This document shows, one piece after another, positions 16,676 to 64,000 of a stretch of DNA of 64,000 nucleotides (position 1 is its first letter; each line of letters starts with the position of its first letter). The stretch spans positions 1 through 64,000 of the IMG/VR virus record IMGVR_UViG_3300036828_000667. One strand, written 5' to 3'. A program made the position numbers and the translations under genes. The DNA is from a virus. The notes beneath the pieces are model-generated. The model was not told the DNA's origin and made no database searches. It saw nothing but the letters and a program-made list of their open reading frames with translations.

Positions 16676-16760
16676 GCACACCGAACCGGAGCATACCTAC
16701 CCACGCCTTCCCGCGCCATTCCAAACCATACCCAACCTACCCTCACCACACCGCACCATA
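16676..16760 (+). ncRNA. pentamer element E1, 17 units
   Basis: (C/G)C-NNN x17; TTGACA 16640; ends CCACA CCGCA CCATA. Confidence 0.85.
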
Positions 16761-16777
16761 CTATTACCTAGTACATA

Positions 16778-17578
16778 CTACCCACTGTGAGGCAGGCTCA
16801 CCCCAACATTTGGAAGAACGGGCGAGACATCCGATGGACGCACCACACCAGCAGTCGCATTTGGCTGGACGTTCACGGGTGCGGTAACTGGCACTAAACC
16901 ACCAGCGTTCGGCCCTGTATAGTTGACTTGCTCGATATCAAGAATCGATACATTACTATAATCTTTTTCCTGTGCGACTCTCATAGCAATAGACTTGGCC
17001 TCTTCTGGAGAAGAAGCTCTAATCGATAGGTGCTCCGTTCGTGGCGTTTCTGTCTCCGGAGTCGAATACTGAATTTTCACGGCGAACGTATAGAGCCCTC
17101 CCGGAGCAGTGAGAGTAGGATCGTGACCTGCGAAGTCTTCACCAAACACAGCCACATGCACTGAACGCCTCATGGCATTTTCACTTATTTTCATGACTTG
17201 GGTTCCTGTCGTTACGATACAAGAATCACTGTAATGCGGTGACAGTTCCCAAGGAACATTAACACCGATATAGTTCAACGCTCTGGTGAGAATATCCCTA
17301 GGATTGTCTACACCGTATTGTTTAGCTAAAGTCCTAACCAAACTCCCTTGTGAGGTGTCATTGACCAAGGCCATGACATCCTCGACTGGCAAGTGATCTC
17401 CTCTTGCAATAGCATCAGTACTCGGATCACTAGGATCAGTATCAGGAGTACCAGGACGCTTAGACATCAGATGAATAGGGAGTGCATCTGAAAATGCGCA
17501 TATAAACTGGAAATCTCTTCGCGAGAAGTCATCTCCTAACATTCTTAATCTATCCCACACACGTAATGTCGTCACCAT
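16778..17578 (-). CDS. hypothetical protein (contains E1 match)
   Basis: 266 aa, GGAGA RBS. Confidence 0.75.
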   Translation of the reverse strand: MVTTLRVWDRLRMLGDDFSRRDFQFICAFSDALPIHLMSKRPGTPDTDPSDPSTDAIARGDHLPVEDVMALVNDTSQGSLVRTLAKQYGVDNPRDILTRALNYIGVNVPWELSPHYSDSCIVTTGTQVMKISENAMRRSVHVAVFGEDFAGHDPTLTAPGGLYTFAVKIQYSTPETETPRTEHLSIRASSPEEAKSIAMRVAQEKDYSNVSILDIEQVNYTGPNAGGLVPVTAPVNVQPNATAGVVRPSDVSPVLPNVGVSLPHSG

Positions 17579-17606
17579 GACGTTTTCTCCAAAAATGAGA
17601 CGTACA

Positions 17607-18134
17607 CTACTCTACCCAGTTTTTACCACTCCGAATATAAGAAATCATAACATGACTAACTCCAAATTCTGCTGCTAAACTCGTATTAATACCCCAATAG
17701 TGAGAACGAGACCTAATATCATCAACTTGTGATCGCGTAAGCTTTGAATTGCCGTTGCGTTGACCTTTCCCACTAGTTCCGTGTTCAATCTGGTCTTTCA
17801 CATTTTTTTCATGAGTATCCCATTTAATATTTTCAGGCCAGCGGTTATCAGAAGGATTTCCATTAAGATGACGACATTCTTGCCCAGGTGGACAAGGACC
17901 ATAAAACGCATTCAGGATAAGAGCATGAACTCTATATGTCTCCAACTTCCTTTCTTCGCCCTTCCACCGTCCAACTGTCATATACCCATCAGAGTTAGAT
18001 GTTAATTTTCTAAACTCAATCTCTTTTATAGTACGATTCTTAAACCTTCCTCCAGGAAGTACCCTAACACGACCACGATTTGAGACCTGATGGAACGGCC
18101 AACTCTCGATATCTTTCCAAATCTCTTCAGTCAC
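17607..18134 (-). CDS. NUMOD4-HNH homing endonuclease
   Basis: EIWKDI..QVSNRGRVR; RVH.LI..AF; CRHLNGNPSDN; GTG start after AGGAGG. Confidence 0.88.
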   Translation of the reverse strand: MTEEIWKDIESWPFHQVSNRGRVRVLPGGRFKNRTIKEIEFRKLTSNSDGYMTVGRWKGEERKLETYRVHALILNAFYGPCPPGQECRHLNGNPSDNRWPENIKWDTHEKNVKDQIEHGTSGKGQRNGNSKLTRSQVDDIRSRSHYWGINTSLAAEFGVSHVMISYIRSGKNWVE

Positions 18135-18281
18135 TGTGATCCCTCCTAGTTTTACAGTCGTAGTTTTACAAACAGAAAAATCGGCGGCTGGCGGGAGACC
18201 GCCTTCCTCCGTCAAATAACCGCCAATCCATGGAGATTTAGTCCAACGTACTCCTGTTGTACGATCGACGCAAGAGGGAAT

Positions 18282-18767
18282 TCACTTCTCAGGCTTGGGT
18301 TTTGGCTTGGGGTTATAGTGCGGCTCGATAAGCTTCAGTATTTTGTGCAATCTGACTATAGCTCTATCTAACTCTTCATCCTTATCTTCTTTGATCCCTC
18401 TCAATTCCTTCAACTTACCGACTGCATGAGTTAGAGCAGCGTGAGCTAAAGTCTTACTGATACTAAGACTTGTACCAAGATGTTCAATCTGATGATGCAA
18501 ATGTGTCTCTACATCCCCAGGCGCAATATCTATATGAGCGGCATGCGTAATCCCCGTAATTACTGCACTGGCAAGAACTGATTTATGATGTTCCTTTACA
18601 GTTCCAAGAACCTTGCTAGCAGCACTGTGAACTGCCTGCTGTCCCTTACCGTTAACAAAACCGTTTATTCTAGATTTAATATCAGGTGACTTTGGACGAT
18701 CCCCCATTGTACCAAACATATATTGATCTTTTTCTATGAAGTCCAAAACACTAAGAACATAGCTCAT
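18282..18767 (-). CDS. hypothetical protein
   Basis: 161 aa coupled ORF. Confidence 0.65.
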   Translation of the reverse strand: MSYVLSVLDFIEKDQYMFGTMGDRPKSPDIKSRINGFVNGKGQQAVHSAASKVLGTVKEHHKSVLASAVITGITHAAHIDIAPGDVETHLHHQIEHLGTSLSISKTLAHAALTHAVGKLKELRGIKEDKDEELDRAIVRLHKILKLIEPHYNPKPKPKPEK

Positions 18768-19411
18768 TGAGATCCACCGTTCTTGGCCAGCATGTTGGAA
18801 AGTTCACGTGGACTCTTGCTTAGGTCACTAGTGCCAGCATCAGTAGTATCAGGTGCAGACATCTGATTTTGTATTCCTGTTGTCCCTAGAAGGCTAGTAG
18901 CACCTGTAGTGAGAGAAGATTGGGGCGTTGTCGTAGGAGGGTTGATACCTATAGATGATTGATCTAAGCCAGGACTAATAGGAGGCCTATTCAGGTTATT
19001 GGGACCGACATCGCCGGTCTGATGTTGACCCGTCAAGGACGGTTGACGTAAGCCCGTAGGTGGCTCACTGGATACAGAATTCGTTGTAGTCGTAGATCGA
19101 CTAGAAATATTCCCTAGGTCAGTCGTAGGATTATCATCAGAATAAGTCTTACCAATAAGCTCTCTGAGAACGGAAGAAACTGGGGAAGAGAAACTGGTCA
19201 AGGACTCACCTCGCTTCCTGCTATAAAACGCCGCGAGAGCTTGTTGTCTACGCTTAGCCTTGGACTTTCCCTTAAATCTGGGATCATCGCTGTTAACGAA
19301 GTCCTTTATCCAGGCACCAGCACCACTAGACACTGATAAGGGCATATCTTTACTCCTAGTCACATTACTACGTTGACCAACCATATTAATTGTATTGAGA
19401 ATATAACGCAC
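18764..19411 (-). CDS. hypothetical protein, S/T/P-rich tail
   Basis: WIKDF..SD.P.FKGKSK..RR..ALAAFY motif. Confidence 0.7.
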   Translation of the reverse strand: MRYILNTINMVGQRSNVTRSKDMPLSVSSGAGAWIKDFVNSDDPRFKGKSKAKRRQQALAAFYSRKRGESLTSFSSPVSSVLRELIGKTYSDDNPTTDLGNISSRSTTTTNSVSSEPPTGLRQPSLTGQHQTGDVGPNNLNRPPISPGLDQSSIGINPPTTTPQSSLTTGATSLLGTTGIQNQMSAPDTTDAGTSDLSKSPRELSNMLAKNGGSQ

Positions 19412-19437
19412 TTAAACATACCTCATTTTCCAGAATG

Positions 19438-20219: not shown

Positions 20220-20492
20220 TCATCCTGTAGGATGCTTAGAAGCATCTTCAGGTGTCTTTGCCTTATGGTGTTCTTCAGGTGCTTTTGCTTTATGGTCTTC
20301 AGGCTTCTTTGCCTTTACAGGCTCCTCGGGCGGGGGAGGCTCAACATGAACCGGGTAGACCGGCTGATCGTCAACGCCCTCGGGCTGATCGCCGAGCGTG
20401 TGGATCACGGGCCTAATCATCTCGTCCCGAGAATGACGATATTCTGGGAACCCACCATCAGCACCCACGATCTTTTCAACGTATTGAGCCAT
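20220..20492 (-). CDS. P/E/K-rich hypothetical protein (contains E2 match)
   Basis: AGGAGA RBS. Confidence 0.7.
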   Translation of the reverse strand: MAQYVEKIVGADGGFPEYRHSRDEMIRPVIHTLGDQPEGVDDQPVYPVHVEPPPPEEPVKAKKPEDHKAKAPEEHHKAKTPEDASKHPTG

Positions 20493-20546: not shown

Positions 20547-20611
20547 ACGGACCATTCCGATCCGAAGCCAGCCCCACCGTGCCTATCCCCTCCCCAGCGA
20601 ACCGAACCACA
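20547..20611 (+). ncRNA. pentamer element E2, 12-13 units
   Basis: TTGACA 20508; CC-NNN register; ends CCGAA CCACA. Confidence 0.82.
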
Positions 20612-20846
20612 CACACTTTATCACGATCACACACTATCCTGGGGCACGTCTCTAACTCTAGTCCAAGAATCACTACTCTTGGTATAGAACCAAACGCTAG
20701 CGTCGTCACACAAAGCGACTATCGGATTAACTTCGGACCCCTGTGAAACCTGGACAACTTTTCTAGTCTTACCAGGAGGATTAGGTTGCTGAGGTGCCAT
20801 GTTCATCCAACCTTCTATCCATACGCGTGTCATCATGACCTTGTCC

Positions 20847-21104: not shown

Positions 21105-24100
21105 TCACGCAGCCATTTTAGTTTTAAAGGTGTACTCAATACGCCCTTTAACTGTAATATAAGCAGATGGATCAGCTGACCTAATCCATACGATCTCACG
21201 ATCGGCTATCAAGTGTATATCGCCTTGATTGTCTACCGAGTATGGCATAGTCGGAGTGATATCAAGTGATGGAGTATATGCTATGAAACACTCACCACGT
21301 CTGACTTCAAGAACTATGCCTATTGCAATATCTTGAACTAATCCAGACGCTATAGGTATCCAATCGCCCTTGACGTTGATCCACTCAAACGACAACATTC
21401 CCCCAGGCTGGAGGAAGTTTGGAAGATACCAGAATTTATTGGTAACGTATCCCCAGACTTGAGAAGTCTTAATATAAGCTAGAACACCACGTAGCTTACC
21501 AGCAATCGTAGTAACCAACGATCTACTATATAGAGATAGAGTTAGATAGACTGATCTAGATCCTTGGACAACCTGTGTCTGAGAAAGACGGATTAGTACC
21601 TCAATAGCAGTTTTAAGGAAATTCTGATTGATAACGATATTGACAATATGAGCCACAGTACCCTTAACTAATAAAATAGAAGAGTCGTATATCAATACGA
21701 TCTTAGCACGGTTCGGCCTGGGAAGCAAGAGGATTTCCCCTGAGACAAGGCCTACCCTCTTGACGACCGAAACAAGTCGCTGCACACTCTCAGCCTGAAT
21801 AAACGACACCAGCCTTCTGGCAATAGAGCTTCTCGTTATAATCTGAGACTGGAAGAGTAAGAACTGGCGAAGAGACGATCTGAGAGAGACCAACGTCTCT
21901 GGACTTACTACAGACAAAGACCTTGTAAATAGCTTACCAAAAGAACTGGTTAACACCCCATGACTAACAAACGTAGCTAGCCTGGACAACAGCTTAACAG
22001 CAGACACCAACTCAGATTGAGTCACAGCAATGATTCGACTTGGTATCTTTCCTATCGCAACGACACTAGAGTTTATAAAAGAGAGTGTCCTGTAGAATGA
22101 GACCATAGCAACTCTAGTAACAATCTCAGGATGCAATATGGATACGGTTTTTAGAAATGCTCTTTGGTTAAACTGAGTAACCACTTCGTGGCTAACGAAG
22201 GAAGCCAGTCTACCTGTCAGTCTAATCAATGAGTAGAGTTGAGACTGAGTGAGTGTTGTAAGCCGACCGACAACCCTAGAGACCGAAGCGACCTGCGACT
22301 GAGCAAATACTGCTAGCTCTGGACGCGTAACCTGACGAGTAATCAGTTGTCCAATCAGTGTAGACAAGGTCTTAAAAAATGCCTTCTGATTGAACTGAGT
22401 TACAATCTCGGGACTAGAGAACTGTTTGATCCTACTAAATACCTTAACTAGACTAATAGCTTCACTTGAAACCAGAGACCTTATACTAGTAATCGCTCTA
22501 GCGGACGACAGTATCTGAGACTGTTGAAATATCCCGTAAGCTGTATTCCTGGTAGACATAAGTATGGATATAGCTGTATGAACTATTATAGTTCTACTTG
22601 TCAAAGTTATATGTGTAATGAATTCTCCAGTCGAGAAGGTAAAGGTTTTGGTAGTTGAAATTGCCCTAGTGAAAATTTGTGGATTCGTAGTTAGAATCGA
22701 CTGTAGTTTAGTTCTGATAGCTGAATAAGTCAGAACTTCTGCGAGTGTAGTCTTGACGATCTTAACAGCCTGACGTACGGCTGTAAGAGCTTCACTGCTG
22801 GTAGCGACGATCGACCGAGTGACAACCCTAACTAAGAAGACGGCTTCAGAGCTAGCCAACGTCAACATACGCGAAGACAGCCTAACCAGAGACAAGAATT
22901 CAGAACTGGTTAAGGTAACAGTCCTAAAGAACGTTTTGATTTGACTTAAAGACAAACTCTCACTAATCGATAGGGTAACTACTCTAAACCTACTAGAGAC
23001 CCTGGCTAATGTCAGAGACTCAGGACTTGCAGTAGTTATAACATGAGAAACACTACCTATAACATCTGCATACAATTCAGAACTAGTAATAGATATTGTA
23101 CGTAGTAAGCTCTTGACTCTAGTCAGGGTTAATACTTCATTGGTAATCACTGTTATAATACGGGAAATACTACCTATTACGTCTGCATACAATTGAGAGC
23201 TAACAAGAGATATGAGTTTTTGGTTTACTACTACACCGGACTGAAACTGCGTAACTGCAGTTACTAGTTCTCCAATCGAGAATACCCTGAATCTACCAGG
23301 AATCTTAGCTAGTGTAAGTGTTTCTCCACTAACGACAGCTACGATATGTGAAATGCTACGTATTATACCAGCATACAATTCAGAGCTAGTAAGAGTTATG
23401 GTACGTAGTAAGCTCTTGACTCTAGTCAGGGTTAATACTTCACTGCTAGTAACTATTATAATATGAGAAATACTACCTATAACATCTGCATACAATTGAG
23501 AGCTAGTAAGATATATCGTGCGTAGTAGACTCTTAATTCTAGTCAGAGTCAGTACTTCATTGCTAGTCACTGTTATGATATGAGAAACACTATCTATTAC
23601 ATCAGAGTAGAATTCGGAACTGGTAATAGATACGATATGAATATACTGTCTAACTGTAGTTATCGTCTCGACTATCGACAACGTGATTGTTCTAAACTTA
23701 CTTGAAATCCTAGCGAGTGTAAGTATCTCTGGACTAGAAATCTGTAAGAACTTGGCAGTAATCTTTGCAGTAACTCTAGAGACTAATTCAGGATCGACGA
23801 AGACCAGCATCTTAGTAACTGATCTAATAAGATACACAGCCGAAGAATTGAAGAAAACCGTAACTCTCGATATGCTCATAACAAATTTTGATAGACTAGG
23901 TTGAATAACAAGTAACTTACCTGTTACGTTCTTATTAACGAAGTTAGCCCCAGTAATCATAGAAAGCATAGGGTTAATCGTAACAAGCTTTCGAGTACCA
24001 AAGGTTTGATACGTTGGAATAGCAGTTAGTGTCTCCGCAATCGACAACGTAACCGTCCTAAACCTACTAGAAATGCTGAATAGCGTAAACGCCTCTGGAT

Positions 24101-25025
24101 TAAATACGCCTAAAACTCTAGATATATTCGATATCCTAGTAAGACTCTCAGAACTCGTTAAAGTTATTGTCCTAAAACTCTGTACAGATCGTATACCAGT
24201 AACTACCTGATGTGAAGTTATAGTAGTAATTGCTTTCTGACGTAGAATAGATCGTATACCAGTAACTGCCGGATGTGAAGTTATAGTAGTAATTGCTTTC
24301 TGACGTAGAATAGATCGTATACCAGTAACTGCCAGATGCAAAGGTGCAACTGTTATCGGCAGTTGGGTTACAACTGGACCACCACCACCAGAAAAATCAG
24401 GTGTAACAATAGTAGCTGTACCAATTCTAAATAGTACGTCAGAGCTACCGTTAGCACTTGCTGTAGTCAGTACCCATTCAAGCTGAATGAACAAATACTC
24501 ATTACTCAATACTATAGGAGATCCGCTGTTCATAACAATCGTTATACTAGAATTAGTGTCTACAGTAGTTGATAAGGTAATATTCGCACATTGAAAAGTT
24601 GCTTGTAACTTAGTAGCTGCAGAACCATCGGCATTTGCCGATTTCCATACCTGGGCAGCAATATTCCCAATAGCGCCAGCTACAGTAGCACGCATATTAA
24701 AATTAAAAGTCCAAGCTGTGCCTGCAAAAGTACCTGTATATGCCGGAGTTATAAAACTATCACCAGCCCCAGCATTAGTAGCATCACTACCTTTTGTTGG
24801 ACCGGAAGAAAAAATACCAATTGGATCAGTAAAAGCAGAAGCTGAAGAAGTAGATGATGCGCCTAACCTAGAAGCAAAATATGGCGTACTAGTAGAAGTA
24901 GTACCTACAAGCCAGCCATAGGTGGAGTTGGCTGCAGTCGGAGCAGTACCGCCATCTTGTAATTGACCAAAGAAATTAGGTGACGGAGCAGCCGTACCAA
25001 GGATATACAGTGTTTTAATAGCCAC
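21105..25025 (-). CDS. second giant S/T/I/V/R-rich repeat protein with globular N-domain
   Basis: 1306 aa; T.TSSE.LT repeats; shares TGANFV.KNVTGKL with 4551-9284. Confidence 0.72.
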   Translation of the reverse strand: MAIKTLYILGTAAPSPNFFGQLQDGGTAPTAANSTYGWLVGTTSTSTPYFASRLGASSTSSASAFTDPIGIFSSGPTKGSDATNAGAGDSFITPAYTGTFAGTAWTFNFNMRATVAGAIGNIAAQVWKSANADGSAATKLQATFQCANITLSTTVDTNSSITIVMNSGSPIVLSNEYLFIQLEWVLTTASANGSSDVLFRIGTATIVTPDFSGGGGPVVTQLPITVAPLHLAVTGIRSILRQKAITTITSHPAVTGIRSILRQKAITTITSHQVVTGIRSVQSFRTITLTSSESLTRISNISRVLGVFNPEAFTLFSISSRFRTVTLSIAETLTAIPTYQTFGTRKLVTINPMLSMITGANFVNKNVTGKLLVIQPSLSKFVMSISRVTVFFNSSAVYLIRSVTKMLVFVDPELVSRVTAKITAKFLQISSPEILTLARISSKFRTITLSIVETITTVRQYIHIVSITSSEFYSDVIDSVSHIITVTSNEVLTLTRIKSLLRTIYLTSSQLYADVIGSISHIIIVTSSEVLTLTRVKSLLRTITLTSSELYAGIIRSISHIVAVVSGETLTLAKIPGRFRVFSIGELVTAVTQFQSGVVVNQKLISLVSSQLYADVIGSISRIITVITNEVLTLTRVKSLLRTISITSSELYADVIGSVSHVITTASPESLTLARVSSRFRVVTLSISESLSLSQIKTFFRTVTLTSSEFLSLVRLSSRMLTLASSEAVFLVRVVTRSIVATSSEALTAVRQAVKIVKTTLAEVLTYSAIRTKLQSILTTNPQIFTRAISTTKTFTFSTGEFITHITLTSRTIIVHTAISILMSTRNTAYGIFQQSQILSSARAITSIRSLVSSEAISLVKVFSRIKQFSSPEIVTQFNQKAFFKTLSTLIGQLITRQVTRPELAVFAQSQVASVSRVVGRLTTLTQSQLYSLIRLTGRLASFVSHEVVTQFNQRAFLKTVSILHPEIVTRVAMVSFYRTLSFINSSVVAIGKIPSRIIAVTQSELVSAVKLLSRLATFVSHGVLTSSFGKLFTRSLSVVSPETLVSLRSSLRQFLLFQSQIITRSSIARRLVSFIQAESVQRLVSVVKRVGLVSGEILLLPRPNRAKIVLIYDSSILLVKGTVAHIVNIVINQNFLKTAIEVLIRLSQTQVVQGSRSVYLTLSLYSRSLVTTIAGKLRGVLAYIKTSQVWGYVTNKFWYLPNFLQPGGMLSFEWINVKGDWIPIASGLVQDIAIGIVLEVRRGECFIAYTPSLDITPTMPYSVDNQGDIHLIADREIVWIRSADPSAYITVKGRIEYTFKTKMAA
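24186..24330. repeat. 63-bp in-frame tandem repeat, about 2.3 copies
   Basis: agatcgtataccagtaact at 24186, 24249, 24312. Confidence 0.9.
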
Positions 25026-25081: not shown

Positions 25082-25783
25082 CTAAGACACGTTCCACTGA
25101 GTCTGAGTAGGCCAGCTGTATACGAGAGGCCATGGTAATGTTGGAGGAGTAAACCCACCTACAGGAAATATCGCTGTATTTGATATTCTGAGTTCGTCAA
25201 TGTAACCATTAAAAGGAGAGCCAGCAGTAGGGAAGACACTATTTCCTATTCCTACGCTAGCGGTTGCAGTACCAATATTCTGAGTGCTAACACCACTCCC
25301 GCTTGCTGACGGTACGCCATTAAGAAACCCAGTTACGTTATTAGAACTGTCTCTTTGCCATGCGACGTGATACCACGTACCTGTAACAGGTGTAAAATCA
25401 ATATGAAAAAAGTGAGTACCGGGTTGATCACTGAAATACAAATTAAGACCACCCCCTGTAATCCAATTGATAATATTAGTACCCATACCTAACATACATA
25501 TATTACCAGCTGTTGAATTCCAATTAACCCAAAAATCAAAAGTAAAAGGCGAACCAGACGGGAAATAGAAATCAGGACTAGGATCTATGGCTAAACCATC
25601 ATAATTACCACCTGTAGTGCAATTTAGTGATCCACTACCAAAGTAAGCGTTACTAGATATTGTACCGACACCTCCCTGAACACTGTATGGCGCTACATTG
25701 TGTCCATTACCAGAGACATCAGTAAAGGTGCTAGAACCTGGGGGACCATCGAAATGGCAAACGAACAGAGGATTAGTAGCCAT
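25082..25783 (-). CDS. LamG/concanavalin-A-like domain virion protein
   Basis: FT.DFW, WYHVA..R, FNGYIDELRIS. Confidence 0.82.
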   Translation of the reverse strand: MATNPLFVCHFDGPPGSSTFTDVSGNGHNVAPYSVQGGVGTISSNAYFGSGSLNCTTGGNYDGLAIDPSPDFYFPSGSPFTFDFWVNWNSTAGNICMLGMGTNIINWITGGGLNLYFSDQPGTHFFHIDFTPVTGTWYHVAWQRDSSNNVTGFLNGVPSASGSGVSTQNIGTATASVGIGNSVFPTAGSPFNGYIDELRISNTAIFPVGGFTPPTLPWPLVYSWPTQTQWNVS

Positions 25784-34278: not shown

Positions 34279-34436
34279 AACCGCTCACCACACCTAACCC
34301 CAAGGGGAGGCTCTGGACGGGCTTTCCCGTGGCCCTGTGGGGGGTAGCTGGGGAGCCGGAAATCTGCACTGGCGGGCTTCTAAGCAGAGCCTGGACCCAC
34401 TTGCCATCCAATAGATCCATGGGGTAAGAACAATAT

Positions 34437-34511
34437 GCATACCGCCCCTCTCCAGGCCGCTGCACGGCATACCGAACCGCCCCTGCCCTGACCAAAGCAC
34501 ACCGCACCATA
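34437..34511 (+). ncRNA. pentamer element E3, 15 units
   Basis: TTGCCA 34401; ends GCACA CCGCA CCATA CTTT. Confidence 0.85.
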
Positions 34512-40263: not shown

Positions 40264-40476
40264 TCAATCAGTGTCATAACCATCTGCGCTATAGTAGTTA
40301 TTTTCGTGGTACGGACACTCTTCTCTCATGAGAGCTAAGCAACGGCGAATAGATGCACTGCTTGTCCCATAGGACTCAACCACGTGGTCGCACCTTGAAC
40401 AAGTAACCTTGACACTGGGAACTTCCCCGTGATCACCTTCCAATTCGATTTCATCTATGGTACATTTTACCTTCAT
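40264..40476 (-). CDS. small Cys-rich protein (contains E5 match)
   Basis: CSRC, RRCL..MREECP. Confidence 0.7.
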   Translation of the reverse strand: MKVKCTIDEIELEGDHGEVPSVKVTCSRCDHVVESYGTSSASIRRCLALMREECPYHENNYYSADGYDTD

Positions 40477-40682: not shown

Positions 40683-40729
40683 ATCCCCCTCCACTTGACT
40701 CACAAAGATTATTTGGCTACTATCCAAAC

Positions 40730-40811
40730 GCGAGCCAAACCGGTCCACTCCACGCCCCTCCTTCGCTTACCGATCCACACAGAATGGCCTGAGAGAAATC
40801 TTGGGCCATTC
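40730..40811 (+). ncRNA. pentamer element E6 (10 units) with GAAA-loop hairpin
   Basis: TTGACT 40695-N17-TACTAT; stem 40782-40811 with two G-U pairs. Confidence 0.85.
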
Positions 40812-45467: not shown

Positions 45468-45497
45468 CACTCAGATTCGAAAGGTCAATAGATAAAG

Positions 45498-45557
45498 TAT
45501 GGTGTGGTATGCTGCGGTGTGGTTCGAGGGGCCGCGGGCTGGTTTGGTTAGGGTTGC
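45498..45557 (-). ncRNA. pentamer element E8, 12 units
   Basis: NNN-GG/GC register on plus; tandem with E9. Confidence 0.8.
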
Positions 45558-45578
45558 AGAACACAGTATGAACTAAAG

Positions 45579-47188: not shown

Positions 47189-47268
47189 TATGGTGCGGTG
47201 TGCAGCGGTTAGGCATGGGATGGGCGGGCTGGCGACGGCGAGGCACGGGTTGCATTGGTGTGGGTTGG
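47189..47268 (-). ncRNA. pentamer element E10, 16 units
   Basis: follows hairpin 47281-47317; ends GCACA CCGCA CCATA CTTTT. Confidence 0.85.
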
Positions 47269-47325
47269 TAGGATAGAGGACAAAGGACCAGAAGATTAGA
47301 TATCCTCTGATCCTTTGAACAGATG

Positions 47326-47390
47326 TGCGGTTTGGTATGCTGTGGGCCGGCACGGCTGGGGGTGGCGCGGGAAGGCTTGGCATGGCTTGC
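47326..47390 (-). ncRNA. pentamer element E11, 13 units
   Basis: TTGACT(-) 47421-47426 N17 TAGTCT. Confidence 0.88.
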
Positions 47391-47433
47391 ACCAAAAAGA
47401 CTACTACCAAACTTACCGCTAGTCAACCACTAT

Positions 47434-47847
47434 TTACCTGATACGCTGCACTAAGCAACCTTCCGATTTTGCCTGCCACGTCCCACACCACTGGCCAGCT
47501 TCAACAGGTCGCAAGATCCACTTTCGTGAATATTCCCAGATCGGAACGACCTTTTTTTCCATGACCTTCTGGCCGTTCTCGTCTAAGACGAGTTTGTTCT
47601 TTTCACCCCGCTTAGACCGTGAGATTTCCTGTGTCCCGACTTGCGTGGCAAATTTCATTTTGACCGCGGACACAGCTGAACCCAAAGTTTTCATGGGATC
47701 GGGCATCTTCTCGGTCTTAGCTGCGAAGAAGCTCTGTCCGACGCCCAATTTATCAAGAGGATATTTGGCGACCCCATTACGGTTACCACGTTTCGACTTC
47801 GGCATTTCCACCGCGTCGATGATTTCAAACGTCACTTGCTCTTCCAT
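47434..47847 (-). CDS. putative DNA-binding phage protein (contains E10 and E11 matches)
   Basis: KYPLDKLGVGQSFF motif. Confidence 0.75.
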   Translation of the reverse strand: MEEQVTFEIIDAVEMPKSKRGNRNGVAKYPLDKLGVGQSFFAAKTEKMPDPMKTLGSAVSAVKMKFATQVGTQEISRSKRGEKNKLVLDENGQKVMEKKVVPIWEYSRKWILRPVEAGQWCGTWQAKSEGCLVQRIR

Positions 47848-49805: not shown

Positions 49806-49913
49806 ACCAGTATAACAATGGGAGGCTACAATGAAAAAAAGTGTAAGTGGGGCTGGTGACTTACCACCAGCCCCTTTGGACTACGCTGTCTCTTATTCTC
49901 AGGGACTAAATTG

Positions 49914-49978
49914 TGCGGTTTGGCCTGCAGCGGAGCGGATAGGCTAGGTTCGGATAGGCAAGGAAAGGCGTGGTATGA
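49914..49978 (-). ncRNA. pentamer element E12, 12-13 units
   Basis: TTGACA(-) 50011-50016; ends CCAAA CCGCA. Confidence 0.85.
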
Positions 49979-50027
49979 ACAATCACTCCCTTAGCCTAGC
50001 TCACAAAAGCTGTCAAGGTTCTTTTCG

Positions 50028-52326: not shown

Positions 52327-52382
52327 GCATCTTCCATATTAGAAAACGAACTGCTAGTCAACATCACTTGGAGATAAAATTG

Positions 52383-52437
52383 TGCGGTATGGGATGCATG
52401 GGGCAGGTCCGGCAGGGTAAGCGTCGGGGTGGGGTGG
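52383..52437 (-). ncRNA. pentamer element E13, 11 units
   Basis: TTGACA(-) 52469-52474; ends CCATA CCGCA CAATTTT. Confidence 0.83.
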
Positions 52438-52711
52438 ACAAAGCTTCATTACTATCATTGCAATCCATTGTCAAGAAGTCTAAAATCAAGCCTCCCGTCC
52501 TCCCCTGGCTGGAGCATAGGATGAAAAAAGGCCCATATCGCAGAAGAACCCTTGTCAGAAAATACAGGTTTCATCCCTATGAGAATTTTGAGTCAGGTAA
52601 GGGATGGAACCTTCCCCATAACAGAAAAAGGGTAAAGAAACATCATGGTCCAGCACTAAATAAACTAGGTCAATTAAGACGTTTTTGGATTACTGTTACA
52701 AGAACATACAG

Positions 52712-53343: not shown

Positions 53344-53613
53344 ATGAAGTATAGGCATTACAAACTACCGCAAAGAGGATATAGACACGACTGGAATGAA
53401 GCCAGAAGAATTCACGTATTTCTTCTAAGATGTGAAGGATTGTCATATGGAGAAATTGCATTACGTCTTGGTGTAACCAGACAAGCAGCTAGAGAAATGT
53501 ATCGTAGAGCAGCCCATATGTTAATGTGGGCATGGCGACATATACTACAACCTCATACAATGATAGACCCAGAGTGTAGACTAGAGGCAGAGGAACATGA
53601 GAGCGACGAATAA
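53344..53613 (+). CDS. sigma70 region-4-like HTH protein
   Basis: LR.EGLSYGEIALRLGVTRQAAR. Confidence 0.7.
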   Translation: MKYRHYKLPQRGYRHDWNEARRIHVFLLRCEGLSYGEIALRLGVTRQAAREMYRRAAHMLMWAWRHILQPHTMIDPECRLEAEEHESDE

Positions 53614-54587: not shown

Positions 54588-54798
54588 AGGAACAGTACGA
54601 TGATGACAAAAATCTACCTGATCGACCCGGGGGCATCAGACGGTTATCCTGGTCTTGTAAAAGAAATTGTCAGAGAGAACATCGAAGCGTTCGATATTGT
54701 CGAGTACACGAATTTATATGGAAAACATGGGTATTACGTGTTTGACGGCATGGTAAAAGATGATATCGTTTACAGACGGGTGATTCGCGTCGCTAGAA

Positions 54799-55062
54799 TT
54801 GCAGAAAAGAAGGAACAAAAGAATGGCCAAGGCGGTCAGACGACCTCCGAAGGGACACCATGATGGCAGTGGAATAAAACTTGCTGTCAAATTTACACCG
54901 AAGCTTTTTAAAAGAATAAACGAACGGGCAACCAAACATAACAAAAACTTTTCAGAAATCGTGAATGAGACTTGTGAATGTGGTCTATTATGCTTGGAAG
55001 AATCGGAGCGGGACGAGCCTAATTATAAGACAGTGGTGAGCCAACATGAAGATCGGGCCTAG
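54799..55062 (+). CDS. ribbon-helix-helix-like protein
   Basis: LAVKFTPKLFKRINERA....FSEIV. Confidence 0.5.
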   Translation: MQKRRNKRMAKAVRRPPKGHHDGSGIKLAVKFTPKLFKRINERATKHNKNFSEIVNETCECGLLCLEESERDEPNYKTVVSQHEDRA

Positions 55063-55212
55063 GTTCTAAAGCTTCCTGGACAGCCTAGGTCTGACGGTGG
55101 AGGAGTACAGGACTATACCTTAGTGCCCCCAGTACTCCTCCACTACACTATAAGGAATCCCATAGCAAATGACGAAGGGGGTTCCTAAACTGTAACACTA
55201 GGAGTAACTAAC

Positions 55213-55803
55213 ATGATGAAGCAAACCTCGTTGGCAAGGCATATAACCGTAGAGATTCCTAGTGAGAACTCAGCTGATGTTGACTTTCTTCATGAGCTAG
55301 AAGAAGCTCATGACCACGACAATTTGAAAGACGTAGGTGCTGGTGTCGAGAAAGCATTCAAGGACAGAGTTGAAAAAGAGTTCTCAGGACAAGACATTAC
55401 ACCAAAGACACGGGCGTCCATCACAGACTTCTGTATATATTTAATGTCGATTGCAAAATTTTACGGTTATGATCTTTTACTAGGTGGGTTTATTACTACT
55501 GTTCACGAAGACATGTTTTCTGTACGAACTCAACCTACCAAAGGGATTACGGCTCTCATAGAGTCAACGTTCACGTATTTTGACGATGAGGGAAACTATA
55601 AACTCACTGCCAATGGTTTCATGAGAAGGGATTGGGCAACTGCCCCAGACGATCCAGTCAGCCGACGTAATCAGATCCTGAGAGATAACAACGATATTTT
55701 TCCCGGATTGCAATACAGTAATGCCAACACCAATAAGCTCCATATTCATATAGAAATAACAGGACAGTTCCCGCTATTAATCCTCCCAGTTACCTACCAA
55801 TAA
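55213..55803 (+). CDS. hypothetical protein
   Basis: C-terminus paralogous to next ORF. Confidence 0.7.
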   Translation: MMKQTSLARHITVEIPSENSADVDFLHELEEAHDHDNLKDVGAGVEKAFKDRVEKEFSGQDITPKTRASITDFCIYLMSIAKFYGYDLLLGGFITTVHEDMFSVRTQPTKGITALIESTFTYFDDEGNYKLTANGFMRRDWATAPDDPVSRRNQILRDNNDIFPGLQYSNANTNKLHIHIEITGQFPLLILPVTYQ

Positions 55804-55837
55804 ATTATAGGGGCTGGGAAGATGGGGGGATTATTGT

Positions 55838-56098
55838 ATGTCCAATGTAATCAACTTACCTATAATGGTAAGAGCGAGATTCTCTTATTTTAATACCAAA
55901 GGTATATTTCAATTATCAGCAGACGGTCATATGAGGCAAGATTGGGCTACTCACTCCAATCTGCCACGGCCTAGACGTACCCAAATCATCCAAGACAATA
56001 AAGGAATGCCAGGAATGCCTGGAAGGGCTTCCGCGTATTTCATACATATTGTCACACAGGATAAGAAACGAACTCTCGTACTTCCGGAGACACCTTGA
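55838..56098 (+). CDS. hypothetical protein
   Basis: paralogue of preceding C-domain. Confidence 0.65.
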   Translation: MSNVINLPIMVRARFSYFNTKGIFQLSADGHMRQDWATHSNLPRPRRTQIIQDNKGMPGMPGRASAYFIHIVTQDKKRTLVLPETP

Positions 56099-56158
56099 AC
56101 AGGGAGGAAAATCAGAACTCAACATGAACAACAAGCAGAAAACCGTAATCACCTATAG

Positions 56159-56437
56159 ATGAAATACTCTAAGGATCGGAGACAAACCATGGATCACGCT
56201 GAACTTCTTGCTAACCTCAATACAGCACTAGACAACTTCGTGAACAGTAGTGATGGAACTAAGCAAGAACTGAAAGATGATCTCGAAGACTTTCGAGACG
56301 ATATAGACGGACGTATCATGGCCCTGGAAGAAGAAATCGAGGAGGAGCAAGGCGAAGATACAGATGAAGATGAAGGAGATGACGGTGAGGAAGCGCCGAT
56401 TGTAGAAACGGGAGAAATGGGAGAAGAGCCGAAGTAA
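56159..56437 (+). CDS. very acidic small protein (contains E14 match)
   Basis: D/E-rich; start probably 56189. Confidence 0.7.
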   Translation: MKYSKDRRQTMDHAELLANLNTALDNFVNSSDGTKQELKDDLEDFRDDIDGRIMALEEEIEEEQGEDTDEDEGDDGEEAPIVETGEMGEEPK

Positions 56438-56445
56438 TAGAGATT

Positions 56446-56544
56446 AAGTCATCCTCTGTTTTTGAAATGACAGAGGATGACTTGTGCGGTTTGGTTAGGA
56501 ATGCAGTGGCTCGGCAGGGTTCGCTTCGGTTTGGTATGGTTCGA
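56446..56544 (-). ncRNA. pentamer element E14 (11-12 units) with 3' hairpin
   Basis: TTGACA(-) 56576-56581 N17 TACGTC; stem 56446-56483. Confidence 0.85.
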
Positions 56545-56565
56545 ACATGCGGGACGTAGCAGAAC

Positions 56566-57183
56566 TTGACCGTCTTGTCAAATGGGTGCAAAATGTCCAA
56601 GAAGTTCTCAATATCAGTGGACCATAATGCATTAAGGCAATTTCCGTTTCTGGATCGACTCCAGAAACAACAATTCCCCATTTCAACCCTCAATGAAGTT
56701 ATGTACGTTCTTGAAAATAGACCTGAAGGATTCAAAATCGAGTTGGTTTATAGTGTATTGAAAGTGTCGTTAATTAACGTCAATAGAGACACCAATGACG
56801 ACTACTTGGGATTGCCGAAGATTGAAGGTCAGTTGAAAGACCTGTGTGATGTGATCAGAGAGACCACGTCATATGGAACACGTGGGGGAGTCGACCCAAG
56901 GACACAAATATATTATAGTAGGAAGTCGTCTATTCTACAGGGTAGTAACCTTAGTGATGATGCTCTGATAGCTCCTAATTATGTTTCTAATAGAGGTTTG
57001 AGAAAACGCCATCCTCTTGATCTTGTGTCCACAGAAGAGGTCGTTAAAAGAAGGGAACTTGCTAACCGACACTGGCAAGAACAGAAAAAAGAGCAACGAA
57101 GAAAACAACAGTCCAGTATCAACTCAAAAATCCGGAATGCTCAGGACTTTTTGACAAGAAGCAATTTTGACAAGAAGCAATAA
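56566..57183 (+). CDS. hypothetical protein (contains E15 match)
   Basis: start probably 56593. Confidence 0.7.
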   Translation: MTVLSNGCKMSKKFSISVDHNALRQFPFLDRLQKQQFPISTLNEVMYVLENRPEGFKIELVYSVLKVSLINVNRDTNDDYLGLPKIEGQLKDLCDVIRETTSYGTRGGVDPRTQIYYSRKSSILQGSNLSDDALIAPNYVSNRGLRKRHPLDLVSTEEVVKRRELANRHWQEQKKEQRRKQQSSINSKIRNAQDFLTRSNFDKKQ

Positions 57184-57201
57184 TAATGTTAACCTTCTTC
57201 G

Positions 57202-57299
57202 GCGAACCGGTCCAATCCGAACCGACCCTATCCCTACCGGACCCTTGCACAGCATACCGCACATCTACCCCTCAGGCTGTATTACACAGCCTGAGGGGT
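57202..57299 (+). ncRNA. pentamer element E15 (12 units) with 3' hairpin
   Basis: TTGACA 57167 N17 TAACCT; stem 57267-57299. Confidence 0.87.
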
Positions 57300-57321
57300 T
57301 ATTATTATTAGGAGGTTAGAG

Positions 57322-57918
57322 ATGGTGACCAAAGAAATGGTAGATGAGTTCTGTAAGCATCTGATTGATGAAGGAAAGATCGTAGAAGCTGGGTGGCTAG
57401 GCTTTAAAATCATGGTGCTTGAACCTGTTGATCTCTCGGAGAATCAAGTCGAAGATATGAAAATGGCATTCTTTGGTGGTGCTTATCATCTGTTCACGTC
57501 GATGACAAGGATGTTAGACCCTGGCAAAGAGCCGTCAGACAATGACATAAAGCGTATAGATCAAATCAATACAGAGCTTGAAGCATTCGTAGGAGTGTTT
57601 GAAGAAGAGCTAAGGAAACGTCAACAGAAACCACCTATATCAGAAGATCCAGCACCAACTCTAGGTGATGCGCCTATCGAACAAGAGTATCGTAGTAAAA
57701 TGCAAGCTGTTGCCATGACCTTAGATAAATTCTTCAATGGCGAGCTTGAAGGAAACGACAGACACACCGGATTTGTCCTACTAGTATTCCCCTTTGAAGA
57801 AAGGGAAGGACGGTGTAACTTCATTTCAAATGGTGCTGATCGAGAGGATGTAGTCACACTTTTCAAAGAAATGATCCAAAAATTTTCTGGCCAACCAGAT
57901 ATAGTTGGACATGCTTAA
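57322..57918 (+). CDS. two-domain conserved phage protein
   Basis: AFFGGA..LF domain plus GFVLLVFPF..CNFISN domain. Confidence 0.75.
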   Translation: MVTKEMVDEFCKHLIDEGKIVEAGWLGFKIMVLEPVDLSENQVEDMKMAFFGGAYHLFTSMTRMLDPGKEPSDNDIKRIDQINTELEAFVGVFEEELRKRQQKPPISEDPAPTLGDAPIEQEYRSKMQAVAMTLDKFFNGELEGNDRHTGFVLLVFPFEEREGRCNFISNGADREDVVTLFKEMIQKFSGQPDIVGHA

Positions 57919-57929
57919 GGAGGTTAACA

Positions 57930-58568
57930 ATGACCAAAAAGGGACCGCCTAACGTTTTTTGTCTACTATGCAATGAAGGATTTGGAAACAATGTTCATCT
58001 AGGTCGTCACGTACTGCAAATGCATGGAATTAACTTTGCCGATTATGATTGGTACAAAGTACAGAATAACATCGAACCACCTTGCTGTGCCAATTGTCAA
58101 GGTCCAGCAAAGATACACTCAGGTCGATATATAAAATTTTGCAGCACTGAGTGTAGTAGCGCCGGCCATATGATTTCTGACGAAGCTAGAGAAAGAGTTG
58201 CGAAGAGTGCGAAGCTAGTAGGTCTAGCAAATCGTACACATGGCGAAAGTAGTAAAGATAATCTGACACCTGAATATAGAGCGTATCACAGTATGCTCTC
58301 ACGATGCTTGAACTCAGCTGACGCACGCTATCCTAATTATGGCGGGAGAGGCATCAAAATCTGTGACCGTTGGCTTGGTGAAAATGGCTTCCGCCATTTT
58401 CTTGAAGATATGGGACGTAGACCGTCTAGCGACTTATCTCTTGATCGCTATCCCAACAATAATGGAAATTATGAGCCAAACAACTGCCGTTGGGCAACAC
58501 GTAGCCAGCAACAGCGTAATAAGAGTCGTGTAAAATCACTAGACAATCCTCCCGATATACTACCATGA
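57930..58568 (+). CDS. HNH endonuclease with N-terminal zinc fingers
   Basis: C2H2, YGGRGIKICDRW, SLDR..NNGNYEPNNCRWAT. Confidence 0.87.
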   Translation: MTKKGPPNVFCLLCNEGFGNNVHLGRHVLQMHGINFADYDWYKVQNNIEPPCCANCQGPAKIHSGRYIKFCSTECSSAGHMISDEARERVAKSAKLVGLANRTHGESSKDNLTPEYRAYHSMLSRCLNSADARYPNYGGRGIKICDRWLGENGFRHFLEDMGRRPSSDLSLDRYPNNNGNYEPNNCRWATRSQQQRNKSRVKSLDNPPDILP

Positions 58569-62625: not shown

Positions 62626-62811
62626 ATGCGTTGCGATCGGTGTCAGGGAACAGGCTGGGATCGGGCAGGAGTACACCCTGTACTTGGGCCGCTCTTCGAT
62701 TGCAACCATCCGTGTACTGAATGCGGCGGGTCAGGCATCGCCCACTGTTGCGACGGCATCTGCGAACAGCCTTCAATTGACAAGTCTATAGATGACAAGC
62801 TAACATCTTGA
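62626..62811 (+). CDS. small DnaJ-like zinc-finger protein
   Basis: CDRCQGTG, CTECGGSG. Confidence 0.6.
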   Translation: MRCDRCQGTGWDRAGVHPVLGPLFDCNHPCTECGGSGIAHCCDGICEQPSIDKSIDDKLTS

Positions 62812-62812
62812 C

Positions 62813-62877
62813 GCCTACCGTACCACTCCGACGCCAACCACACCGAGCCGGTCCATACCTTTCCAAACCAAACCACA
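62813..62877 (+). ncRNA. pentamer element E16, 13 units
   Basis: TTGACA 62777 N18 TAACAT; ends CCAAA CCACA CTTTTTT. Confidence 0.85.
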
Positions 62878-62932
62878 CTTTTTTATTACTACTAGATATT
62901 CAGGAAAGGCGAACATGAGAGGTTAGGTTAAA

Positions 62933-63085
62933 CTAACTTCGTTCTTCCTTTAGCTCAGCTACAAACTTCTTAATCAGAGTTGTTAAGGTTGGAGTGTGCT
63001 TAGCTGGAAAGTTACCAGCAAGTACCTTGGCAATAGCATACCGAATTACCTTAAACTCTTCCTCAGTTAGCTCCAACGTTATCAC
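62933..63085 (-). CDS. 50-aa hypothetical protein (not in ORF track)
   Basis: GTG start after GAGG; MITLELTEEEFKVIRYAI... Confidence 0.5.
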   Translation of the reverse strand: MITLELTEEEFKVIRYAIAKVLAGNFPAKHTPTLTTLIKKFVAELKEERS

Positions 63086-63314
63086 TAGGCACCTCGCCTT
63101 TCTTTATCACGCTAACCTTACTATCATCGATCTTCAGAGTAAACCTCTTATTATCCACAACTTCTCGCCATCTATTTTCCTCAATATAAGCACAGGCTTT
63201 AAGGTAGTCCGTCAAACAAAAAACATGAGTATGTATCTGTGACCAACACGGATGCTCACGGCATAAGTGTTCAATCTTGGCGGCTAACTCCCTGAGTGGT
63301 GATTGCATACCCAA
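63063..63314 (-). CDS. hypothetical protein
   Basis: GGAGG RBS. Confidence 0.55.
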   Translation of the reverse strand: MGMQSPLRELAAKIEHLCREHPCWSQIHTHVFCLTDYLKACAYIEENRWREVVDNKRFTLKIDDSKVSVIKKGEVPSDNVGAN

Positions 63315-63410
63315 CCTCCCTTTTGTGTGACCATAAAGTTACACTTAAATTGAATCTGATTCTGGGAATTGACCTGCCAAGGCTGATAGGCGAAAACTCA
63401 TATTGCAAGG

Positions 63411-63514
63411 TCGAACCGCTGCCTTGCTTGCCAAACCGGGCCAAGCCGGCGCGGACCAAACCTCCGCACACCGCACAATGGGAGTAGTCAAATGGCTTGC
63501 AGACTACTCCCATT
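63411..63514 (+). ncRNA. pentamer element E17 (13 units) with 3' hairpin
   Basis: TTGACC 63369; GCACA CCGCA; stem 63477-63514. Confidence 0.88.
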
Positions 63515-63533
63515 AACACAGGAGTAAAACAAC

Positions 63534-64000
63534 ATGCTAATTTCAGTCACGATCTCCGGAATCCGACCTTTAATCCTCGACGCGTTTTCCGAGGAAGCGT
63601 TGCTTAAGGGGAAGGGAGGAAAGAGTACAGCCCAGCCCAAGGAACTGAGTCCCTTGGATCAAGCCAAGCGTAGGTTATACTATAATGGAGATGGTACCGA
63701 CGTTCCTATATTCCCAGCAGACAACCTACTCAGCTGTATCATCGCTGCCGGGCGGTTTATCAAGGTCGGGAAAAGGCAACTAACTACTCGCGACAGTACG
63801 ACAGTAACTTCATTCCTACAGATATCAGAACTATATCTTCCCATTAGGTCGATAGATGGATGGCGAGTCGACTCCAGGAGCATCGTCAACCCGTCTACAA
63901 AAGGTCGTCACATATGCTACCGTCCCATCTTTGACGACTGGGAGTTAGATTTCACGCTCGACATCGATACGAATGAAGCGAGCGACAGCTTGGTTAGACA
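63534..64000 (+). CDS. RAMP/Cas7-like protein, truncated by the window end (not in ORF track)
   Basis: AGGAG RBS; MLISVTISGIRPLIL..., PIFPADNLLSCI, D.R.IV...GRH..YRPIFDDWELDFTL.ID; no stop to 64000. Confidence 0.7.
   Translation, partial: MLISVTISGIRPLILDAFSEEALLKGKGGKSTAQPKELSPLDQAKRRLYYNGDGTDVPIFPADNLLSCIIAAGRFIKVGKRQLTTRDSTTVTSFLQISELYLPIRSIDGWRVDSRSIVNPSTKGRHICYRPIFDDWELDFTLDIDTNEASDSLVR

What the first reader, a model, noticed from the sequence alone, without database searches (positions are those of the whole stretch)
16676..63632. Hypothesis: RNA-guided homing or marker exclusion explains guide-next-to-target linkage
Established: free-standing T4 seg/mob endonucleases cut a neighbouring gene in related phages while the self allele is protected by polymorphism, so both are co-inherited. 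Inference: a roughly 100-bp guide cassette within about 0.4 kb of a resistant allele would spread the same way using a shared effector. Alternatives are silencing of co-infecting phages or self-regulation. No linked nuclease is identified in the window.
Basis: inference. Interest (0 to 1): 0.78.

Follow-up and report, generated by a model that had tools for sequence, protein, structure and literature searches.

The report
Scattered VIPR guide RNAs beside look-alike genes
The "guide cassettes" are guide RNAs of VIPR, a phage RNA-guided gene-silencing system first described in 2026; what is unusual here is that they are scattered across the genome, each next to a resident gene it almost matches, which fits silencing of rival phages better than nuclease-driven homing.

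Summary
The elements are real. About 16 intergenic units of 45-90 nt lie in the window, and 13 more lie just beyond it. Each has a constant 5' head followed by 8-20 pentamers with invariant GG. They are vrRNA genes of a VIPR system (bioRxiv 10.64898/2026.04.26.720920). The effector gene vipr is ORF 63534-64175: it matches the solved SUSP1 Vipr at E=1.6e-14 and has a Cas7/Csm3-like fold.

The linkage is also real. Under the published 1-nt-skip rule, 7 of about 29 guides have their best genome-wide match within 500 nt (about 0.3 expected). Skips of 0, 2 or 3 give none.

"Resistant allele" is not shown. The six clear neighbours match at 80-95% of NN positions, above the 80% cut-off the preprints use to call a target. 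The preprints found no self-hit at that level.

An unexpected result concerns the guide's third base, which is only 58% pyrimidine here. It keeps the purine/pyrimidine class of the resident wobble base in 30 of 32 two-fold codons (p=2e-7), yet it is the same base in only 24% of units.

Homing has no support: no nuclease is tied to the system, and known VIPR silences transcription. Silencing of relatives' alleles, with the guide linked to a recoded resident allele, fits best. One guide matches relatives' alleles better than self, and three do not. This is a new variant of a known kind. Other first-stage notes of this scan on the same genome had already flagged these units.

The parts
16673..16757 (-). 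solo vrRNA (el16663): 2 constant head units plus 15 variable units
   Evidence: best genome-wide NN match is 17057-17107, 24/30
17057..17107 (-). near-cognate site of el16663 inside ORF 16778-17578 (266 aa, no known family)
   Evidence: relatives P0104, P0106, P0102 and P0096 can match the guide better than self
20549..20613 (-). solo vrRNA (el20539)
   Evidence: best NN match 20343-20378, 17/20
20343..20378 (-). near-cognate site of el20539 in ORF 20220-20492
34434..34508 (-). solo vrRNA with no significant match in its own genome
39298..39382 (-). solo vrRNA with no significant match in its own genome
40184..40228 (-). short solo vrRNA (el40174) directly preceded by a stem-loop
   Evidence: NN 11/12 to 40288-40311
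40288..40311 (-). near-cognate site of el40174 near the C-terminus of ORF 40264-40476
40727..40781 (-). solo vrRNA (el40717) with a near-identical stem-loop before it; weak peptide-level match to 40632-40670
   Evidence: score does not exceed shuffles, so the match is uncertain
45501..45560 (+). solo vrRNA, followed at 45583 by a degenerate second unit that keeps the head motif
47192..47271 (+). solo vrRNA, first of a tandem pair
47325..47393 (+). solo vrRNA (el47324), convergent with the DUF7303 gene
   Evidence: NN 21/22 with 10 consecutive perfect units
47626..47664 (-). near-perfect site of el47324 in the DUF7303 gene 47434-47847
   Evidence: Pfam PF23978 E=2e-24
49913..49976 (+). solo vrRNA; weak neighbour match at 49757-49801
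52382..52440 (+). solo vrRNA
56484..56542 (+). solo vrRNA preceded by a stem-loop
57199..57262 (-). solo vrRNA preceded by a stem-loop; weak peptide-level match to 56779-56823
62810..62878 (-). solo vrRNA
   Evidence: NN 18/20 to vipr codons 21-30, with all 10 virtual codons synonymous
63594..63629 (+). near-cognate site of E17 in the early codons of vipr
63534..64000 (+). vipr effector gene (213 aa; runs on to 64175 of the record). An array of 10 vrRNAs follows at 64185-65411, and its first unit near-matches the G-loop codons of vipr
   Evidence: PDB 36pp_D 'SUSP1 Vipr protein' E=1.6e-14; AlphaFold2 pLDDT 82 and Csm3/Cas7 top fold hits; 95 homologue clusters; gene plus array conserved in L129

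Best explanation
The cassettes are vrRNA genes of a VIPR (Viral Interference Programmable Repeat) system. Each is a short RNA with a constant 5' head (GUGCGGUNUGG) followed by 8-20 pentamers. The two G of each pentamer are held by one protomer of the RAMP protein Vipr (ORF 63534-64175). The variable bases pair with double-stranded DNA in steps of three, in phase with codon positions 1 and 2. This much rests on homology plus the published mechanism, and the period-3 rule is re-derived here from the phage's own sequence.

The rest is inferred. The scattered guides are aimed at the alleles that related, co-infecting phages carry for the neighbouring genes, including rival vipr genes. Vipr-vrRNA filaments would silence those alleles rather than cut them. 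The resident gene next to each guide would be a synonymously and conservatively recoded allele that escapes. Guide and escape allele stay adjacent because recombination among relatives that separates them would produce a genome that silences itself (poison-antidote linkage). If this clade also reads its relaxed third base, resident identity falls to 63-73% and self-immunity follows.
For: Identity. The gene-plus-array layout recurs in relatives of 43-66% GC. More than 118 viral contigs carry such pentamer tracts. The period-3 rule is recovered de novo: 7 neighbour hits against 0 for other spacings.

Literature. The preprints describe the GGY/NN code, wobble-aligned skipping and silencing. They also describe guides against the early codons and the gene end of rival vipr, with self-match lower than non-self match. 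That is the same layout as E17 and the first array unit here.

Allele logic. Every internal guide-self mismatch is either a Leu/Arg/Ser box switch (5 units) or a conservative exchange such as I/V, L/M or S/N. The guides therefore read like functional alleles. Alleles with exactly those residues exist in relatives for el16663.

Third base. It keeps the amino acid in 30 of 32 two-fold codons but shows no class signal in four-fold codons (10/23). It is the same base in only 17 of 70 units. Stop triplets are depleted (7 against 15.7 expected), and also in the closest clade members (L129: 0 against 3.9).

Co-occurrence. Variants of 85-99% identity are present in the same soil runs.
Against: No guide-perfect allele was found at the DNA level. 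For three of four guides tested, self is the best match known. Self NN identity of 0.80-0.95 would count as a target under the published 80% criterion. E17's site lies in a poorly conserved part of Vipr, so its target must be self or a very close relative. Silencing a rival allele whose product the resident supplies in trans does not obviously harm the rival. The third base being read is an inference; in SUSP1 Vipr that base is buried in a pocket and does not pair. Expression of these RNAs has not been shown.
Confidence: 0.5

Rival explanations
1. Autoregulation. The phage has co-opted VIPR to repress or tune its own genes. Each scattered guide would bind the neighbouring resident gene, and the two vipr-flanking guides would give negative feedback on vipr.
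For: Self is the best known match for E17, the first array unit and el47324. NN identity is 0.85-0.95, with 10 consecutive perfect units for el47324, which is above the 80% threshold the preprints use to call targets. Adjacency to the gene would suit local action.
Against: A trans-acting ribonucleoprotein does not need to be adjacent. Box switches and wobble differences are the opposite of what selection for pairing would keep. The preprints found no self-hit at 80% or above in the systems they examined and describe avoidance of autoimmunity. el16663 fits other phages' alleles better than self.
Confidence: 0.25
2. One reading: RNA-guided homing or marker exclusion. The guide directs damage to the sensitive allele in a co-infecting genome, and repair from the resistant allele copies the guide cassette across.
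For: Guide and near-cognate allele are tightly linked. Related strains co-occur. Variant contigs skip 47545-47713 and 40638-40918, stretches that contain target sites or a cassette (weak evidence, from contigs laid at 85% likeness). Some VIPR types carry nuclease or helicase accessory genes. HNH genes lie at 17607-18215 and 66253-66807.
Against: No nuclease is conserved beside vipr in 57 related loci. The HNH genes look like ordinary free-standing homing endonucleases, and only one sits near a guide. Characterised VIPR systems silence rather than cut. There are no data on inheritance.
Confidence: 0.08
3. Birth scar. Guides are made or captured from a copy of the neighbouring gene, or of a homologue that recombined in at that place, by an unknown templated process. 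Adjacency and codon-like triplets would then record origin rather than present function.
For: All three bases of the triplets look codon-derived. A fragment of a second vipr sits inside the array, which shows that recombination with other VIPR loci has occurred.
Against: No known process inserts two bases after every codon. An unselected third base would have lost its purine/pyrimidine signal over the time in which the wobble sites became saturated. Heads and promoters are well kept.
Confidence: 0.12

Closest known systems
Type II VIPR of Escherichia phage SUSP1 and a Pseudomonas fulva prophage (bioRxiv 10.64898/2026.04.26.720920 and .720927)
   Same: Both have a small RAMP protein and roughly 100-nt RNAs made of pentamer repeats with invariant GG. 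Targets are read two bases in every three, in codon phase and on either strand. One guide lies upstream of vipr and an array lies downstream.
   Different: This Vipr is distant (E=1.6e-14), and the G-loop residues that contact G1 and G2 in SUSP1 Vipr (D177, W178) are V and M here, with a four-residue insertion. The third unit base is only 58% pyrimidine, making this an NNNGG-type repeat, which the preprint lists as an alternative without giving a rule for it. The constant part is a 5' head rather than a 3' pseudoknot tail. No vap gene was recognised. At least 16 guides lie 0.1-47 kb from vipr. Self-hits reach 80% or more.
Solo or orphan vrRNAs of satellites and VIPR-null phages (bioRxiv 10.64898/2026.10.15.759431)
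   Same: Both involve stand-alone guides outside an array. Both include guides against the early codons and the end of rival vipr genes, and both show self-match lower than non-self match as a means of self-immunity.
   Different: Those solo guides sit at the former VIPR locus or on satellites that lack vipr. Here they are scattered through a vipr-carrying phage, each beside the resident homologue of its presumed target.
Class 1 CRISPR Cas7/Csm3 backbone with crRNA
   Same: The fold is shared (Foldseek probability 1.0, E about 1e-6). In both, one protomer binds each repeat step and guide bases are flipped out periodically.
   Different: There are no CRISPR repeats, no Cas1/Cas2 and no other cas genes. 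The step is 5 nt with 2 or 3 read bases, against 6 nt with 5 read bases. Specificity lies inside a repeat scaffold.
T4 seg/mob free-standing homing endonucleases and marker exclusion
   Same: In both, a selfish determinant lies next to an allele of a neighbouring gene that is insensitive to it, so the two are inherited together.
   Different: Those elements encode the nuclease themselves and act by cleavage and repair. Here the cassette is a roughly 100-nt RNA gene that uses a shared effector with no known nuclease activity.

Membership tests
VIPR system | Vipr protein: a minimal RAMP with RRM core, G-loop and thumb | tested here: met
   Profile match to PDB 36pp_D SUSP1 Vipr at E=1.6e-14 over residues 16-182; model pLDDT 82; top fold hits are Csm3/Cas7
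VIPR system | vrRNA: 9-16 tandem pentamers with invariant GG(Y) alternating with variable bases | tested here: met
   29 tracts of 7-26 units. GG positions are 96% and 80% (plus 18% GC) conserved. The Y position is relaxed to 58% pyrimidine, i.e. the NNNGG variant
VIPR system | Non-contiguous target rule: one target base skipped per unit, aligned with the codon wobble position | tested here: met
   Only the 1-nt skip gives neighbouring best hits (7, against 0 for skips of 0, 2 and 3). All six clear sites are in frame with codon positions 1-2
VIPR system | Invariable structured 3' tail on each vrRNA | tested here: inconclusive
   The constant part found here is a 5' head, preceded by an AT-rich -10-like box or by a stem-loop. 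Only a short recurrent GGTTCG motif is seen near the 3' ends. The preprint says architecture varies by type
VIPR system | vipr-accessory (vap) gene in the locus | tested here: inconclusive
   No ORF in 58-72 kb other than vipr is shared with 57 related vipr loci. Pfam and PHROGs name no neighbour except HNH-type ORFs
VIPR system | vrRNAs are expressed, bind Vipr and repress transcription of matching DNA | not testable with these tools
   Needs small-RNA sequencing, pull-down and reporter assays
Homing / marker-exclusion element | A site-specific nuclease acting on the sensitive allele | tested here: not met
   No nuclease domain in Vipr and none conserved beside it. The HNH ORF 17607-18215 neighbours one target gene only
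Homing / marker-exclusion element | Element-minus relatives carry the sensitive (guide-perfect) allele | tested here: inconclusive
   Possible for el16663 at the amino-acid level. Not so for E17, the first array unit and el47324. The element-minus relative L186 scores 19/28. DNA of the close relatives could not be fetched
Homing / marker-exclusion element | Biased inheritance of element plus flanking marker in mixed infection | not testable with these tools
   Needs crosses with an isolate

The most novel reading that the evidence does not exclude
In this NNNGG-type VIPR clade, all three variable bases of each unit are read. Guides can then tell apart alleles that encode the same protein. Each scattered guide, together with its synonymously recoded resident gene, would form a poison-antidote module that spreads by recombination among co-infecting relatives and drives fast synonymous turnover at target windows. 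This would be self/non-self discrimination written in codon choice.
Probability: 0.22. Interest if true: 0.85.

Novelty: new variant of a known kind. Interest (0 to 1): 0.6.

Why it matters
VIPR has been known for only a few months, and only from systems whose guides cluster at the vipr locus and show no self-hits. This phage has three features the three held preprints do not describe: guides scattered genome-wide, guide-to-neighbour near-matches at 80-95%, and a third guide base that is synonymous with the resident codon but rarely identical to it.

These features make two open questions directly testable. The first is how a VIPR-bearing phage avoids silencing itself. The second is whether NNNGG-type guides read two or three bases per unit. 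If guide and recoded allele prove to be linked as a selfish pair, that would be an RNA-guided counterpart of toxin-antidote and homing elements in phage populations.

Tried and rejected
Readings considered before the system was identified, all superseded by the Vipr match:
- A protein-sponge or leader RNA for a ring protein of the TRAP or CsrA kind.
- G-quadruplex tracts.
- Antisense Rho-loading sites.
- Five-base decoding by special tRNAs. No tRNA gene is present in the window or the whole record.

Searches that found nothing useful:
- Rfam gave no match.
- Megablast of 44-64 kb against cultured phages gave no match.
- The head motif searched in viral contigs gave only chance hits without tracts.
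- Decoding guides of 100+ other contigs into peptides gave no neighbour matches. By the NN rule, only 6 of 438 guides had one, three of them an upstream guide against the first vipr codons.
- Exact NN patterns of the first array unit (viral and metagenome contigs) and of el16663 (viral contigs) gave 0 hits.
- Locus searches with the el16663 target protein found nothing in viral or metagenome contigs. With an alignment, one distant relative, L186, was found.

Tools and data that were unavailable or limited:
- No RNA holder was listed among public runs.
- Read laying gave contigs only.
- The scan's own index had no look-alike windows.

Other points. The neighbour matches of el40717, el49912, el57189 and el68148 do not clearly beat shuffles, so I do not rely on them. 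Tracts at 43337-43371 and 44271-44305 lack the head and are doubtful.
Full report
**What is there.** The window is the first 64 kb of a 113,838-nt IMG/VR virus record. The phage occurs in soil metagenomes and has no close cultured relative. A scan for GG (or CC) recurring every 5 nt finds 29 tracts in the record and none in five shuffles. In the window they lie between 16673 and 63476, in intergenic positions.

Read in the G-rich sense, each tract starts with a constant head (GTGCGGTNTGG). The head is preceded either by an AT-rich -10-like box (TGATAAAGTAT) or directly by a stem-loop. It is followed by 8-20 pentamers in which the two G are 96% and 80% conserved and the other three bases vary. 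Just past the window end, ORF 63534-64175 is followed by ten such units in tandem.

**What it is.** The 213-aa ORF has 95 homologue clusters and no Pfam family. A profile of the family hits one solved structure, chain 36pp_D 'SUSP1 Vipr protein', at E=1.6e-14. The AlphaFold2 model (pLDDT 82) finds Csm3/Cas7 subunits as its best folds. Homologues in contigs of very different G+C content carry the same gene-plus-array layout. More than 118 other viral contigs carry comparable tracts.

This is the VIPR system described in three 2026 preprints. Vipr protomers polymerise on a vrRNA made of GGY/NN pentamers. They bury the GGY bases and present the NN bases, which pair with double-stranded DNA while skipping every third target base, usually the codon wobble position. 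The complex represses transcription. The first-stage notes of this scan had reached much of this architecture without naming it.

**The linkage.** I confirmed this and generalised it. Reading each unit in the C-rich sense as triplet plus CC, nine guides give peptides that match an ORF 60-400 nt away, five of them clearly above shuffled controls.

The unbiased test uses only the two published informative bases. With a target period of 3, seven of about 29 guides have their best genome-wide hit within 500 nt, against roughly 0.3 expected. With periods of 2, 4 or 5, none do. This re-derives the 1-nt-skip rule in a distant Vipr clade and shows that the guide-next-to-near-target linkage is real.

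Six pairs are clear: el16663, el20539, el40174, el47324, E17 (63413-63476, against vipr codons 21-30), and the first array unit (against the vipr G-loop codons). Guides against the early codons and the end of vipr are what the October 2026 preprint reports for rival-targeting guides.

**Is the resident allele resistant?** This is not shown. With the two constant head units removed, NN identity to self is 0.80, 0.85, 0.92, 0.95, 0.90 and 0.89, and el47324 has ten consecutive perfect units. The preprints call natural targets at 80% or above and found no self-hit at that level in the systems they examined. In this respect the phage departs from what is published.

Other complete VIPR phages keep their guides at the vipr locus. 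Only 6 of 438 guides in 140 other loci have a significant neighbour match. The scattering and adjacency are therefore a feature of this phage or its lineage, not of VIPR in general.

**The third base.** In SUSP1 Vipr the third unit base sits in a pocket that excludes purines and points away from the skipped target base. Here it is a pyrimidine in only 58% of units. In units whose NN bases match the resident gene, the third base is not free either.

- In two-fold codon boxes it keeps the purine/pyrimidine class of the resident wobble base in 30 of 32 units (51% expected, p=2e-7).
- In four-fold boxes there is no class signal (10 of 23).
- It is the same base in only 17 of 70 units.
- Five NN mismatches are Leu, Arg or Ser box switches, and the others are conservative exchanges.
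- Stop triplets are under-represented in all guides (7 against 15.7 expected), and TA-units carry a pyrimidine in 17 of 21 cases.
- The two closest clade members show the same depletion (L129: 0 against 3.9; L131: 2 against 3.5), whereas other loci taken together show no pyrimidine bias at TA units.

The guides of this clade therefore look like in-frame copies of functional coding sequence at all three positions, synonymous with the resident allele but saturated for synonymous differences. The published two-base rule does not predict this.

The simplest reading is that the third base matters in this clade. Resident identity would then drop to 63-73%, which would give self-immunity. This is an inference, not a result.

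- For the el16663 target protein, relatives at 60-93% identity exist. Four clusters carry residues that allow a better guide match than self, up to 15 consecutive perfect units, against four mismatches in self. This is an amino-acid-level upper bound, because their DNA could not be fetched.
- For E17 and the first array unit, no relative matches better than self, either among 57 vipr loci at the DNA level or among 94 proteins.
- For el47324, self and a 93% relative are the best matches.
- A distant relative of 147 kb without vipr or tracts has the two orthologous genes abutting. It scores 19/28.
- Exact-pattern scans found no perfect target.

The outcome is mixed, and it is limited by the absence of close relatives' DNA.

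**Mechanism.** Nuclease-type homing has no support. Vipr has no nuclease domain, and nothing but vipr is conserved across related loci. The HNH genes at 17607-18215, 65437-65682 (a fragment-like ORF) and 66253-66807 look like ordinary free-standing endonucleases.

I rate silencing of relatives' alleles with a linked, recoded resident allele as most likely (0.5). Autoregulation comes second (0.25), a birth scar of guide origin third (0.12), and homing last (0.08). Variants of 85-99% identity co-occur with this phage in two soil runs. Some variant contigs align on both sides of 47545-47713 and of 40638-40918 but not across them, and these stretches contain a target site or a cassette. This is a weak hint of local hypervariability.

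**Verdict.** The system itself is already known (VIPR). The scattered, gene-adjacent, near-self guides with a codon-like third base make this instance a new variant worth a bench test.

Noticed in passing
record 64949-65149 (+), 0.95 kb past the window end (L126:4949-5149): A 66-aa ORF with a good ribosome-binding site is the C-terminal third of a second Vipr. It is 49% identical to residues 129-186 of the resident Vipr and falls in the same PHROG. It sits inside the vrRNA array and splits it into 7 plus 3 units. It could be a remnant of recombination with another VIPR locus, or possibly an expressed fragment.
   Followed up: partly
window 17607-18215 (-); record 66253-66807 (-) and 65437-65682 (+): A free-standing HNH endonuclease gene lies directly upstream of the el16663 target gene. 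An HNH_3+AP2 gene and an 81-aa ORF matching an HNH-endonuclease family lie just after the vrRNA array. No link to VIPR is shown.
   Followed up: partly
window, e.g. 16640-16660, 40120-40140, 45680-45700, 56575-56590, 57140-57185: The motif TGTCAAG recurs 10-60 nt downstream of many vrRNAs and 10-25 nt before the ribosome-binding site of the next gene. It may be a phage promoter element. On the other strand it reads as a TTGACA -35 box pointing into the tract.
   Followed up: no
window 40229-40262 and 40782-40815 (-): Two vrRNAs 540 nt apart are each preceded by a nearly identical stem-loop directly abutting the head. The stem-loop may therefore belong to the element (a 5' handle or a processing site) rather than being just a terminator of the gene upstream.
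   Followed up: no
3' ends of many tracts, e.g. 16680, 34470, 49960, 56545, 57205, 63425: A short GGTTCG(A/G) motif recurs near the 3' end of the vrRNA tracts. It may be the counterpart of the 3' tail of published vrRNAs.
   Followed up: no
window 25783-28815 and 28831-31884 (-); 4551-9284; 21105-25025: Two adjacent paralogous genes of 1010 and 1017 aa are 73-84% identical at the nucleotide level. The 1577-aa and 1306-aa ORFs have extensive internal repeats, including a 63-nt tandem repeat at 24186-24374. They are probably tail fibre or host-recognition proteins.
   Followed up: no
window 47434-47847 (-): A DUF7303 gene lies on the minus strand among plus-strand genes, with two vrRNAs converging on its 3' end. 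One of them matches it over ten consecutive units.
   Followed up: partly
window 38001-58000 in soil runs X1 and X2: Both soil metagenome runs hold this phage together with variants of 85-99% identity. Assembly breaks fall at the shared vrRNA promoter and head sequences.
   Followed up: partly
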